Shown piece after piece: positions 55,939 to 56,261 of a stretch of 64,000 nucleotides of DNA (the stretch's first letter is position 1; each line of letters begins with the position of its first letter). Under the pieces are notes generated by a model that worked only from the letters and a program-made list of their open reading frames with translations, made no database searches and had not been told where the DNA came from. The stretch lies in the IMG/VR virus record IMGVR_UViG_3300005614_000001, positions 32,001 to 96,000 of that record, one strand, 5' to 3'. The translations under genes were made by a program, and so were the position numbers. The DNA is from a virus. Taxonomy: Duplodnaviria > Caudoviricetes.

Positions 55939-56078
55939 TTTATTTTTTATTTTCTAATTTTTTTTCCAATTTTTAAAATCTTTTATATGGCTTTTAGAAT
56001 ACCTCTATTGAAGGTGGGCTTAAATTAAAACAGCCGCAGATTAGCGGCTGTAAATGTTTTAGTCGTCGGCGGCTAAAG

Positions 56079-56144
56079 TGACAGTTGGTGTAAATAACAC
56101 GCCATCCTTTGAAGATGGGGTTGTGGTTAAATCCACGCTGTCCT
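56079..56144 (+). tRNA. Degenerate tRNA-Gln(UUG)-like element 1
   Basis: GACAGT/GCTGTC acceptor, TGGTGTAA..AACAC D-arm, CCATC-CTTTGAA-GATGG anticodon arm, GTGG-TTAAAT-CCAC short T-arm. Confidence 0.55.
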
Positions 56145-56151
56145 AAGTAAA

Positions 56152-56223
56152 CGACTGGTTGGTGTAACGTCAACATGTTGCCCCTTGAAGGCAAAGTAGC
56201 TGGTTAAACTCCAGCACCGTCCA
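56152..56223 (+). tRNA. Degenerate tRNA-Gln(UUG)-like element 2
   Basis: GAC(T)GGT/ACCGTC acceptor, TGGTGTAA..AACAT D-arm, TTGCC-CCTTGAA-GGCAA, GCTGG-TTAAACT-CCAGC. Confidence 0.6.
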
Positions 56224-56230
56224 ATTTTTA

Positions 56231-56261
56231 CAAATATACAAAGGGGGTATGACACTACAAA
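56231..56261 (-). promoter_or_regulatory. sigmaA promoter pointing antisense over the tRNA-like pair
   Basis: TTTG-N19-TATATTTG. Confidence 0.6.

What the first reader, a model, noticed from the sequence alone, without database searches (positions are those of the whole stretch)
56030..56261. Tandem elbow-less tRNA-Gln(UUG)-like RNAs overlaid by an antisense promoter
Seen: two cloverleaves with divergent stems share the UUG anticodon and TGGTGTAA, and both lack the D-loop GG and have T-loop TTAAA instead of TTCRA. The G19-C56 elbow is therefore lost on both sides in both copies. Copy 2 has C33 and a bulged acceptor. Two GC-rich hairpins precede them (56030-56051, 56058-56077). G-U pairs favour the plus strand, yet a consensus promoter (56231-56261) points across them on the minus strand. 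Inference: preserved stems with shared loop changes suggest selected tRNA mimics (anticodon-nuclease decoys, synthetase sponges, processing signals) rather than decay. Gln is also the amino acid used in crAss TAG recoding.
Basis: partly seen in the sequence, partly recalled or inferred. Interest (0 to 1): 0.7.

Follow-up and report, generated by a model that had tools for sequence, protein, structure and literature searches.

The report
Paired odd tRNA-Gln genes in phage
A 117-kb crAss-like phage carries two side-by-side, unusual copies of a glutamine tRNA gene whose helices have been kept intact and whose "elbow" contact looks swapped rather than lost, with a host-type promoter and terminator reading across them on the opposite strand; whether they still work as tRNAs is unproven.

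Summary
Two tandem tRNA-Gln(UUG)-like cloverleaves lie on the + strand at 56079-56144 and 56153-56223. Both pass the Rfam tRNA cut-off (31.5 and 39.8 bits, cut-off 29). Default ARAGORN misses both.

They sit at the divergent strand switch of a 116.9-kb crAss-like phage. No homologue was found in viral, metagenome or genome collections.

"Elbow-less" is probably a misreading. The model alignment puts U at position 19 and A at 56 in both copies, which is a complementary swap of G19-C56. An equivalent A19-U56 swap marks a large family of otherwise canonical phage tRNA-Arg(UCU) genes, some in the same slot of related phages.

The two anticodon stems differ at four of five pairs, all by paired transitions that keep Watson-Crick pairing. 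This argues for selection on structure.

Copy 2 has C33 and a flawed acceptor stem. Copy 1 has shrunken D and T arms.

A perfect Bacteroidetes-type promoter (56261-56231, minus) and a terminator hairpin (56051-56030) bracket the pair in antisense.

Best reading (about 0.4): structure-maintained, atypical phage tRNA-Gln genes on the early strand, overlapped by a later antisense transcript. Rivals are decaying pseudogenes, an antisense small RNA as the real product, and a non-decoding decoy. The TAG-recoding link is not supported.

The parts
56030..56051 (.). Perfect 8-bp GC-rich hairpin. On the minus strand it is followed by TTTTAATTTAA and looks like an intrinsic terminator. On the + strand it lies upstream of the tRNA-like pair and has only a weak U tract after it.
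   Evidence: Terminator scan. Fold of -15.5 kcal/mol, z -5.9.
56058..56077 (+). Second hairpin, directly abutting copy 1. It contains a G-U pair, so it is clearly stronger on the + strand.
   Evidence: -7.8 kcal/mol (z -3.6) on the + strand against -3.1 on the minus strand.
56079..56144 (+). Copy 1, a tRNA-Gln(UUG)-like gene of 66 nt. Acceptor pairs 2-7 are intact and 1:72 is a U-C mismatch. The D stem is GUGU/ACAC with a 5-nt D loop. The anticodon stem is CCAUC/GAUGG with loop CUUUGAA. The T stem has 4 bp and the T loop (UUAAAU) has 6 nt.
   Evidence: Rfam 31.5 bits. ARAGORN -ps calls it tRNA-Gln(ttg). Parsing and a cloverleaf energy of -20.0 kcal/mol, against an MFE of -21.1.
56145..56152 (+). 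8-nt spacer between the copies, with spacing like that of a dimeric tRNA precursor.
   Evidence: Sequence. The comparison with dimeric precursors is from general knowledge of phage T4 tRNA genes.
56153..56223 (+). Copy 2, a tRNA-Gln(UUG)-like gene of 71 nt. The acceptor has either two adjacent mismatches (2:71, 3:70) or a bulged U56156. The D loop is AACGUCA, read as G18 U19. The anticodon stem is UUGCC/GGCAA with loop CCUUGAA (C33). The T arm is 5 bp with loop UUAAACU (A56).
   Evidence: Rfam 39.8 bits. ARAGORN only at -ps80. Parsing and energies.
56225..56229 (+). Run of five T directly after copy 2. It may mark the 3' end of a + strand transcript. It overlaps the start region of the minus-strand transcript.
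   Evidence: Sequence. The role is inferred.
56231..56261 (-). Host (Bacteroidetes)-type promoter: TTTG at 56261-56258, then 19 nt, then TATATTTG at 56238-56231. The expected start is near 56226, three bases outside the end of copy 2, reading antisense through both copies.
   Evidence: Genome-wide, 5 of 5 intergenic strict matches lie on the minus strand and head the leftward block. In 80 related loci the motif is 141:27 in favour of the TerL strand. The start position is inferred from the usual geometry of such promoters.
55908..55938 (-). Second host-type promoter, 67 nt upstream of the first leftward gene (start 55841). The leftward operon therefore does not need the promoter at 56231-56261.

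Best explanation
The two elements are paralogous genes derived from an ordinary phage-type tRNA-Gln(UUG). They lie on the strand of the early (rightward) genes, at the divergent strand switch of a crAss-like phage.

Selection has kept them as tRNA-shaped RNAs. All helices still pair although their sequences have diverged. The tertiary G19-C56 pair has been replaced by a complementary U19-A56 pair rather than destroyed.

I think they are most likely made early as one short two-unit transcript. I think they serve as unusual tRNA-Gln(UUG) surrogates during infection, meaning molecules that still present the Gln anticodon stem-loop on an L-shaped body.

Later in infection, host RNA polymerase starting at the promoter at 56261-56231 reads back across them and stops at the hairpin at 56051-56030. 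This would give an antisense RNA of about 200 nt that probably silences or clears the early RNAs.

Shown here: the sequence anatomy, the model scores, the compensated differences, the motif matches, and the family context.

Inferred: transcription of either strand, processing, charging, decoding, and the regulatory role of the antisense unit.
For: 1. Both copies exceed the curated tRNA threshold on the + strand only. No minus-strand tRNA hit appears even at E up to 10.
2. Core nucleotides are kept in both copies: U8, A14, A21, G26, G53-C61, U54, U55, R57, A58 and the anticodon UUG with A37. PMC7912444 gives the canonical elbow anatomy.
3. Position 19 is U and position 56 is A in both copies in the model alignment. 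Canonical phage tRNA-Gln genes with the identical D stem anchor that register.
4. There is precedent for a swapped 19-56 pair. The tRNA-Arg(UCU) genes of relatives L050 and L064, in the same slot, have G18-A19 and U56 and score 68-69 bits. The same variant occurs in at least 117 viral contigs. Across the 121 loci examined there are 71 distinct sequences, all called tRNA-Arg by default ARAGORN, with freely covarying stems. It also occurs in 4 of 401 Bacteroidota genomes.
5. Between the copies, four of five anticodon-stem pairs and acceptor pair 5:68 differ on both sides. All ten changes are transitions and all pairs stay Watson-Crick. Identity is 18 of 22 in positions 8-9, the D stem, position 26, the anticodon loop and the variable loop, against 2 of 10 in the anticodon stem.
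6. G-U pairs, the asymmetry of hairpin 2 and the cloverleaf energies all favour the + strand.
7. Related phages (TerL 55-58% identical) carry tRNA, tRNA-like or tmRNA genes on the same strand, 3-7 kb upstream of TerL.
8. In Cellulophaga phage phi14:2, the corresponding non-coding early region is reported as very abundantly transcribed from the earliest time point (preprint 10.1101/2020.03.07.982082). Here that region turns out to hold a tmRNA gene.
9. The antisense promoter and terminator are strong matches of a type used only by the leftward block.
Against: - Scores are 30-40 bits, against 55-73 bits for canonical tRNAs of related phages. Default ARAGORN rejects both copies.
- Copy 2 has C33 and either two adjacent acceptor mismatches or a bulge.
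- Copy 1 has a 5-nt D loop, a 4-bp T stem, a 6-nt T loop and a 1:72 mismatch, so its acceptor-T stack is short.
- The U19-A56 pairing rests on two related sequences only, so its chance probability is not small.
- No homologue exists for a covariation test.
- The closest relative available (TerL 75% identical) has no tRNA-like element at its junction, so the pair is dispensable for the lineage.
- No host-type promoter precedes the pair on the + strand.
- CAA is not over-used: it is 55% of Gln codons in early genes and 43% in late genes, lower than other A-ending pairs.
- No tRNA-processing, repair or charging enzyme was seen among 20 of the larger early-block proteins.
Confidence: 0.4

Rival explanations
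1. The pair are decaying tRNA pseudogenes. A tRNA-Gln gene, acquired and duplicated or acquired twice, is no longer used. Each copy is collecting its own lesions. The promoter and hairpin simply belong to the leader of the leftward late operon.
For: - Model scores are low and default ARAGORN fails.
- The two copies carry different defects: C33 plus acceptor mismatches in copy 2, and shortened D and T arms in copy 1.
- The nearest relative has no counterpart and no homologue exists anywhere searched.
- There is no codon-usage need for CAA.
- The cloverleaf is not the minimum-energy fold of either copy, and copy 2 folds no better than shuffled sequence (z -0.7).
Against: - Five doubly changed stem pairs all remain Watson-Crick, and all go through transitions. 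If the stems had independent origins, the chance is roughly (1/3)^5 (my estimate).
- The rare state at positions 19 and 56 is shared and complementary.
- The loops that define the tRNA core are much better conserved between the copies than the anticodon stem is.
Confidence: 0.25
2. The selected product is the minus-strand RNA. It would be a small RNA of about 200 nt made by host RNA polymerase from 56226 to about 56022. Its body is the mirror image of two tRNA-Gln-like sequences. It acts by pairing with RNAs from the other strand, or by its own fold, for example as a timing switch at the early/late boundary.
For: - A perfect -33/-7 promoter sits three bases outside copy 2, and a strong hairpin plus U tract lies just beyond copy 1. 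Together they bracket exactly the pair and hairpin 2.
- The leftward operon has its own promoter at 55908-55938, so this unit looks self-contained.
- This promoter type is used only in the leftward direction in this genome and in its relatives.
- The minus strand folds at least as well as the + strand overall (z -3.4 against -2.8).
- Watson-Crick compensation is strand-neutral.
Against: - tRNA-likeness, meaning the conserved loops, is specific to the + strand.
- Three G-U pairs become A-C mismatches on the minus strand, and hairpin 2 nearly dissolves there.
- The altered elbow nucleotides argue against a design for pairing with canonical host tRNA-Gln.
- No extended complementarity to any other part of the genome was found.
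- No relative shows a promoter reading antisense over its tRNA or tRNA-like gene.
Confidence: 0.15
3. One reading: non-decoding tRNA mimics. The + strand RNAs are not charged. They act as bait for a tRNA-Gln-directed nuclease or sensor, as a sponge for a synthetase or modification enzyme, or as RNase P/Z processing marks.
For: - Structure is maintained although several features would handicap a decoding tRNA.
- The anticodon stem-loop, the usual target of anticodon nucleases, is the best kept and also the most diversified part. The two stems differ at four of five pairs below an almost identical loop.
- Related phages carry, in the same slot, tRNA-Leu-like RNAs with normal acceptor, D and T arms but no 7-nt anticodon loop. 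Non-decoding tRNA look-alikes therefore do occur in this family.
- Phage tRNAs are known to counter tRNA-cleaving defences (PMC10264068, PMC11464382, PMC11555353).
Against: - There is no positive evidence here for any target nuclease or enzyme.
- No bacterial anticodon nuclease specific for tRNA-Gln(UUG) was identified in this work.
- The documented cases use functional tRNAs rather than inert decoys.
- No host is known.
Confidence: 0.15

Closest known systems
Ordinary phage-encoded tRNA-Gln(UUG) genes
   Same: They share the anticodon, the D stem GUGU/ACAC and the 5' D-arm motif UGGUGUAA, which is seen in 5 of 16 unrelated phage tRNA-Gln genes. The anticodon loop CUUUGAA lies within their range. 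Tandem arrangement with short spacers is usual for phage tRNA genes.
   Different: The canonical genes have the D loop AAUUGGCA (G18 G19) and the T loop UUCGA/UUCAA. They score well and default ARAGORN finds them. The window's copies have U19/A56, shortened loops, C33 in copy 2 and acceptor defects.
Phage tRNA-Arg(UCU) family with an A19-U56 elbow pair
   Same: The G19-C56 tertiary pair is replaced by another Watson-Crick pair. Members occur in the same genomic slot of related crAss-like phages (L050, L064).
   Different: That family is otherwise fully canonical, scores 68-69 bits and is widespread: at least 117 viral contigs, 71 distinct covarying sequences and a few Bacteroidota genomes. The Gln-like pair uses the opposite orientation (U19-A56), has further defects and is a singleton.
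Reduced tRNAs of metazoan mitochondria
   Same: They have small D and T loops without G18 G19 or T54-Psi55-C56, and a weaker or alternative elbow (mentioned in PMC7912444).
   Different: Those work with a dedicated mitochondrial translation system. No such adaptation is known for bacteria or phages.
Phage tRNAs that neutralise tRNA-cleaving defences (T5 tRNA-Lys against PARIS; tRNA-Tyr against retron Eco7; anticodon-loop variants in mycobacteriophages)
   Same: These are phage tRNA genes whose anticodon stem-loops differ from the host's. Here the two copies carry very different stems and a 33 variant (PMC11464382, PMC11555353, PMC10264068).
   Different: Those are functional tRNAs with a known cognate nuclease. 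Here neither function nor target is known.
Cis-antisense small RNAs of phages (for example lambda OOP; from general knowledge)
   Same: A promoter and an intrinsic terminator on the opposite strand overlap a sense gene at a regulatory junction.
   Different: The known examples overlap protein-coding genes. Here the overlapped genes are tRNA-like, and expression is unverified.
Abundant early non-coding RNAs of crAss-like phage phi14:2
   Same: They are structured, tRNA-related RNA genes at the head of the early block. The phi14:2 non-coding gap reported as highly transcribed holds a tmRNA gene (preprint 10.1101/2020.03.07.982082).
   Different: It is a different RNA class (tmRNA) with no sequence relationship. 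No antisense promoter motif is found there.

Membership tests
tRNA (Rfam RF00005, canonical elongator tRNA) | Covariance-model score at or above the gathering score of 29 bits over the full model | tested here: met
   31.5 bits for copy 1 and 39.8 bits for copy 2, model positions 1-71, + strand only.
tRNA (Rfam RF00005, canonical elongator tRNA) | Cloverleaf with 7/4/5/5-bp acceptor, D, anticodon and T stems | tested here: inconclusive
   The D and anticodon stems are intact in both copies. In copy 1 the acceptor is 6 bp plus a 1:72 mismatch and the T stem is 4 bp. In copy 2 the acceptor has two mismatches or a bulge and the T stem is 5 bp.
tRNA (Rfam RF00005, canonical elongator tRNA) | Core nucleotides U8, A14, A21, G53-C61, U54, U55, A58 | tested here: met
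   Present in both copies in the natural register. Anatomy is from PMC7912444.
tRNA (Rfam RF00005, canonical elongator tRNA) | G18 G19 in the D loop pairing with Psi55 and C56 of the T loop | tested here: not met
   Copy 2 has G18 U19 with A56, and copy 1 has A18 U19 with A56. U19 and A56 are complementary, so the contact may be swapped rather than absent. That is an inference.
tRNA (Rfam RF00005, canonical elongator tRNA) | U33 and a purine at position 37 in a 7-nt anticodon loop | tested here: inconclusive
   Copy 1 has U33 and A37. Copy 2 has C33 and A37.
tRNA (Rfam RF00005, canonical elongator tRNA) | Transcription, end maturation, CCA addition and aminoacylation | not testable with these tools
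No CCA is encoded.
Phage tRNAs with a swapped 19-56 pair (A19-U56 tRNA-Arg type) | Watson-Crick complementary, non-G-C nucleotides at positions 19 and 56 | tested here: met
   U19/A56 in both copies by model alignment and by comparison with canonical phage tRNA-Gln D loops.
Phage tRNAs with a swapped 19-56 pair (A19-U56 tRNA-Arg type) | Otherwise canonical, and recurrent across many genomes with covarying stems | tested here: not met
   The Arg family has 71 distinct sequences in 121 loci, all called by default ARAGORN. The Gln-like pair has no homologue in any collection and carries extra defects.
Cis-antisense small RNA unit | Promoter and intrinsic terminator on the opposite strand bracketing the sense gene | tested here: met
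   TTTG-19-TATATTTG at 56261-56231. Hairpin 56051-56030 followed by TTTTAATTTAA.
Cis-antisense small RNA unit | A discrete antisense transcript is made | not testable with these tools
   No RNA data are available.
tRNA pseudogene | Uncompensated, randomly placed substitutions in stems and loops | tested here: not met
   All five doubly changed pairs stay Watson-Crick. Only one to two mismatches per copy, all in the acceptor stem.
Suppressor tRNA of TAG-to-Gln recoding crAss-like phages | CUA anticodon and in-frame TAG codons in phage genes | tested here: not met
   The anticodon is UUG. Coding density is 92.6% in the standard code and 93.0% with TAG read as sense. Large ORFs are intact.
Anti-defence phage tRNA or decoy | A cognate tRNA-targeting nuclease in the host, and protection by the phage RNA | not testable with these tools
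   The host is unknown. Only the variant anticodon stem-loops can be seen.

The most novel reading that the evidence does not exclude
A timed tRNA-mimic module. Two look-alikes of tRNA-Gln have a swapped elbow and diversified anticodon stems. The injected virion polymerase makes them first. They act as bait or as nuclease-proof substitutes against a host system that reads tRNA-Gln(UUG) or the canonical G19-C56 elbow. A dedicated antisense small RNA, made later by host polymerase, then removes them. Together with the A19-U56 tRNA-Arg family, this would point to the tRNA elbow pair as a recurrent battleground between phages and hosts.
Probability: 0.1. Interest if true: 0.75.

Novelty: new variant of a known kind. 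Interest (0 to 1): 0.45.

Why it matters
Phage tRNA genes are now known to do more than supply rare codons; some neutralise tRNA-cleaving defences. This pair would show that a phage can keep tRNA-shaped RNAs in which the near-universal G19-C56 elbow pair is exchanged for another pair.

The widespread A19-U56 tRNA-Arg family found along the way suggests such exchanges are a recurring and so far little-noticed feature of phage tRNAs.

The arrangement of a sense tRNA-like gene with a dedicated antisense promoter and terminator would also be an unusual way to time a small RNA at the early/late switch of crAss-like phages.

If the pair proves to be dead genes, the lesson is more modest: strand-switch regions of these phages are a graveyard and nursery for tRNA-related genes.

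Tried and rejected
Searches for homologues of the pair all failed:
- blastn and nhmmer of the intergenic region against 80 related TerL loci.
- Exact motif patterns in viral contigs (five chance hits in coding DNA).
- Metagenome contigs with a strict pattern (none) and a loose pattern (106 hits, none cloverleaf-like).
- 185,579 species genomes (71 hits, none cloverleaf-like).
- blastn against 50,697 phage records.

Neighbouring proteins gave no usable relatives:
- The downstream 119-aa protein has one 76%-identical relative, P0003, on a 1,183-bp Logan contig.
- P0001 and TerL as single queries found nothing in viral contigs.

Relatives cannot be drawn for a virus record.

Readings considered and rejected:
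- A tRNA on the minus strand. There is no Rfam hit, and the mirror arms lack D and T loop features.
- TAG or other stop-codon recoding.
- A codon-supply need for CAA.
- A shared TTTCTATTT motif as an early promoter. It is not enriched in intergenic DNA.
- Trans targets or extra copies elsewhere in the genome.
- The 60-66 aa minus-strand ORF 55994-56194. It runs through both hairpins and is taken as spurious. It was not searched.
- tRNA-related enzymes among 20 early-block proteins. None was found.

A literature search for U19-A56 or A19-U56 found no paper.
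Full report
**What is there.** The window is bases 32001-96000 of a 116,928-bp virus record with 80-bp terminal repeats. Its gene content is crAss-like. It has a 4,019-aa virion protein. Its large terminase matches phrog_6681 and its portal matches phrog_6547. The closest named relatives by TerL are Leptolyngbya phage Lbo-JY46 (43% identity) and Cellulophaga phages (32%).

Genes run leftward from 55841 (structural and packaging block) and rightward from 56402 (replication and early block). 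The finding therefore sits in the divergent strand-switch region. The standard genetic code fits, with a coding density of 92.6%. Reading TAG as sense gives no real gain.

Infernal finds two complete tRNA matches on the + strand, at 56079-56144 (31.5 bits) and 56153-56223 (39.8 bits), against a curated cut-off of 29. It finds none on the minus strand. Default ARAGORN finds no tRNA anywhere in the genome. With relaxed thresholds it calls both copies tRNA-Gln(ttg).

Parsing gives these features:
- The anticodon is UUG in both copies.
- The segment U8-G9-GUGU-AA is identical in both.
- The D loops are AAAUA and AACGUCA, without GG.
- The T loops are UUAAAU and UUAAACU.
- Copy 2 has C33.
- Copy 1 has a 1:72 mismatch.
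- Copy 2 has either two adjacent acceptor mismatches or, at lower energy, a bulged U.

The two preceding hairpins are real. The first folds at -15.5 kcal/mol (z -5.9) and the second at -7.8 kcal/mol (z -3.6).

The minus strand carries TTTG, 19 nt, then TATATTTG at 56261-56231. This is the Bacteroidetes -33/-7 consensus.

**Origin of the two copies.** The shared UGGUGUAA is not a special feature. In an unrelated sample of phage loci, 5 of 16 distinct tRNA-Gln(UUG) genes have it. They also have the same D stem GUGU/ACAC and a D loop AAUUGGCA. The copies therefore descend from this ordinary tRNA-Gln type.

Outside the anticodon stem the copies are close to each other. Identity is 18 of 22 in positions 8-9, the D stem, position 26, the anticodon loop and the variable loop. 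They also share the acceptor ends GAC...GUCC and the T-loop start GGUUAAA. This points to a duplication.

**The elbow looks swapped, not lost.** The model alignment places G18-U19 in copy 2 and A18-U19 in copy 1, with A at position 56 in both. Against the canonical D loop ...G18 G19 C20 A21, copy 2 reads ...G U C A. The U therefore sits at position 19. U19 and A56 can form a Watson-Crick pair in place of G19-C56. The rest of the T-loop fold is kept: G53-C61, U54, U55, a purine at 57 and A58 (anatomy from PMC7912444).

With only two related sequences this is suggestive, not proven. There is, however, a clear precedent. In relatives L050 and L064, the tRNA-Arg(UCU) gene in the same genomic slot has G18-A19 and U56 and scores 68-69 bits. 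A pattern for that variant hit at least 117 viral contigs. Across the 121 loci examined, default ARAGORN calls every one tRNA-Arg(tct). They comprise 71 distinct sequences whose stems covary freely while A19 and U56 stay fixed. Four of 401 sampled Bacteroidota genomes carry the variant too. Working tRNAs with an exchanged 19-56 pair therefore exist in this virus-host world. I found no paper that names such pairs.

**Evidence for selection on structure.** Four of the five anticodon-stem pairs differ between the copies on both sides: C-G to U-A twice, A-U to G-C, and U-A to C-G. Acceptor pair 5:68 differs in the same way. All ten substitutions are transitions, and all pairs remain Watson-Crick. 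This is the pattern expected from stepwise compensatory change through G-U intermediates. If the stems were unrelated, only about one in three doubly different pairs would be transition-transition, so five of five has a chance of roughly 0.004 (my estimate). Free decay would have produced mismatches in these stems.

The argument does not say which strand is selected. Three G-U pairs fall in + strand helices. Hairpin 2 is much weaker on the minus strand. The cloverleaves are about 1.8 kcal/mol better on the + strand. The loops are tRNA-like on the + strand only. All of these point to the + strand.

**What argues against a normal tRNA.**
- Scores are far below those of canonical tRNAs in related phages (55-73 bits).
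- C33, the acceptor defects of copy 2 and the shrunken D and T arms of copy 1 would each handicap decoding.
- Neither cloverleaf is the minimum-energy fold.
- CAA is not favoured in the phage's genes.
- No tRNA-related enzyme appeared among 20 early-block proteins.

**Family context.** An alignment of TerL relatives retrieved 80 loci from IMG/VR, with 54-75% identity. None has a sequence homologue of the pair. The closest (L008, 75%) has a 0.9-kb junction with no tRNA-like element. The genes nearest the junction are not conserved either.

Many of these phages nevertheless carry a tRNA-related gene 3-7 kb upstream of TerL, on the strand opposite to TerL:
- Canonical tRNA-Arg(UCU).
- The A19-U56 variant of tRNA-Arg(UCU).
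- A tmRNA, in L013.
- A set of tRNA-Leu-like RNAs. These have normal acceptor, D and T arms but a variable 20-100-nt middle in place of an anticodon loop.

In L033 and L054 the tRNA lies about 1 kb inside the early block. The head of the early block is thus a habitual home for tRNA-related genes. This supports the + strand as the coding strand here.

In Cellulophaga phage phi14:2, early genes are transcribed by the injected virion polymerase from promoters without a recognisable motif. Middle and late genes use host polymerase and host-type promoters. Two early non-coding regions are reported as more abundant than most mRNAs (preprint 10.1101/2020.03.07.982082). One of those regions contains a tmRNA gene (46 bits in Rfam; ARAGORN gives a tag peptide). 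That fits the same picture.

**The antisense unit.** The strict host-type promoter motif occurs seven times in the genome. Five occurrences are intergenic, and all five lie on the minus strand at the head of leftward genes. In the 80 related loci the motif favours the TerL strand 141 to 27. The match at 56261-56231 is therefore very likely a working promoter.

Its expected start, near 56226, lies three bases beyond the end of copy 2. The hairpin at 56051-56030 followed by TTTTAATTTAA is a good terminator on that strand. The leftward operon has its own promoter at 55908-55938. The promoter-terminator pair therefore looks like a separate unit of about 200 nt that is antisense to both copies and to hairpin 2. 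No relative shows such an arrangement. No host-type promoter, even a relaxed one, precedes the pair on the + strand. This is what the phi14:2 model predicts for early genes, but it leaves + strand expression unproven.

**Verdict.**

| Reading | Confidence |
|---|---|
| Structure-maintained, atypical tRNA-Gln(UUG) paralogues on the early strand with a compensated elbow, overlapped by a later antisense transcript that probably switches them off | about 0.4 |
| Decaying pseudogenes | 0.25 |
| The antisense RNA is the real product | 0.15 |

I would give no more than about 0.3 that either copy is charged and decodes. The finding is an interesting singleton, but only moderately so. The wider pattern of swapped elbow pairs in phage tRNAs may deserve more attention than this locus itself.

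Noticed in passing
L283 (Cellulophaga phage phi14:2, NC_021806) 4031-4500, + strand: An unannotated tmRNA gene: Rfam 46.0 bits (cut-off 47), E 2.6e-16, and ARAGORN gives the tag peptide GSSVQKLAMVA. It lies in the non-coding gap between g004 and g006. The phi14:2 preprint reports that gap as an abundant early 'long non-coding RNA' of unknown function.
   Followed up: partly
L013 2300-2696 (minus in locus; same as L102 300-696): A relative of the window's phage encodes a tmRNA (65.7 bits; ARAGORN finds a tag peptide). It lies on the early strand, about 7 kb upstream of TerL.
   Followed up: partly
L088-L090 and L093-L098 (junction regions of relatives L014, L044, L046, L062, L068, L070, L072, L074, L078): A family of tRNA-Leu-like RNAs. 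The acceptor (AGUCAGG.../...CCUGACU), the D arm (GGCGAAAUUGGUAGACGC) and the T arm (GGUUCGAAUCC) are conserved. In place of the anticodon arm there is a highly variable 20-100-nt middle. They score 37-44 bits and default ARAGORN does not call them. They may be non-decoding tRNA look-alikes.
   Followed up: partly
L284-L404; also L100/L101 (relatives L050, L064): A large family of phage tRNA-Arg(UCU) genes in which the near-universal G19-C56 tertiary pair is replaced by A19-U56 (D loop ...UGAAUAG, T loop UUUGAAU). It occurs in at least 117 viral contigs and has 71 distinct sequences with covarying stems. Four of 401 sampled Bacteroidota genomes carry it too. No paper naming this pair was found.
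   Followed up: partly
window 48430-51621, minus strand: The large terminase gene carries an intein with Hint and LAGLIDADG domains, at about residues 620-1004. An intein-free allele with identical exteins (P0126, 667 aa) exists on another contig, so presence of the intein is polymorphic.
   Followed up: partly
window 39416-39445, 54530-54560, 55908-55938, 56231-56261 (all minus); genome 19993-20024 (minus): Strict Bacteroidetes-type promoters (TTTG, 18-21 nt, TAnnTTTG) occur only at the head of leftward (structural) genes. None occurs in the sense direction in the rightward block. This fits host-polymerase transcription of the late block and another polymerase for the early block.
   Followed up: yes
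window 54154-55841 and 56402-61000: The small genes on both sides of the strand switch have no detectable homologues in 80 related loci, whereas the genes from 52773 to 54065 are conserved. The junction is a hypervariable cargo region.
   Followed up: partly
L007 (Leptolyngbya phage Lbo-JY46) 2093-6633: The closest named relative carries about 19 annotated tRNA genes directly upstream of its TerL module. They are on the same strand as TerL, the opposite orientation to the window's pair.
   Followed up: no
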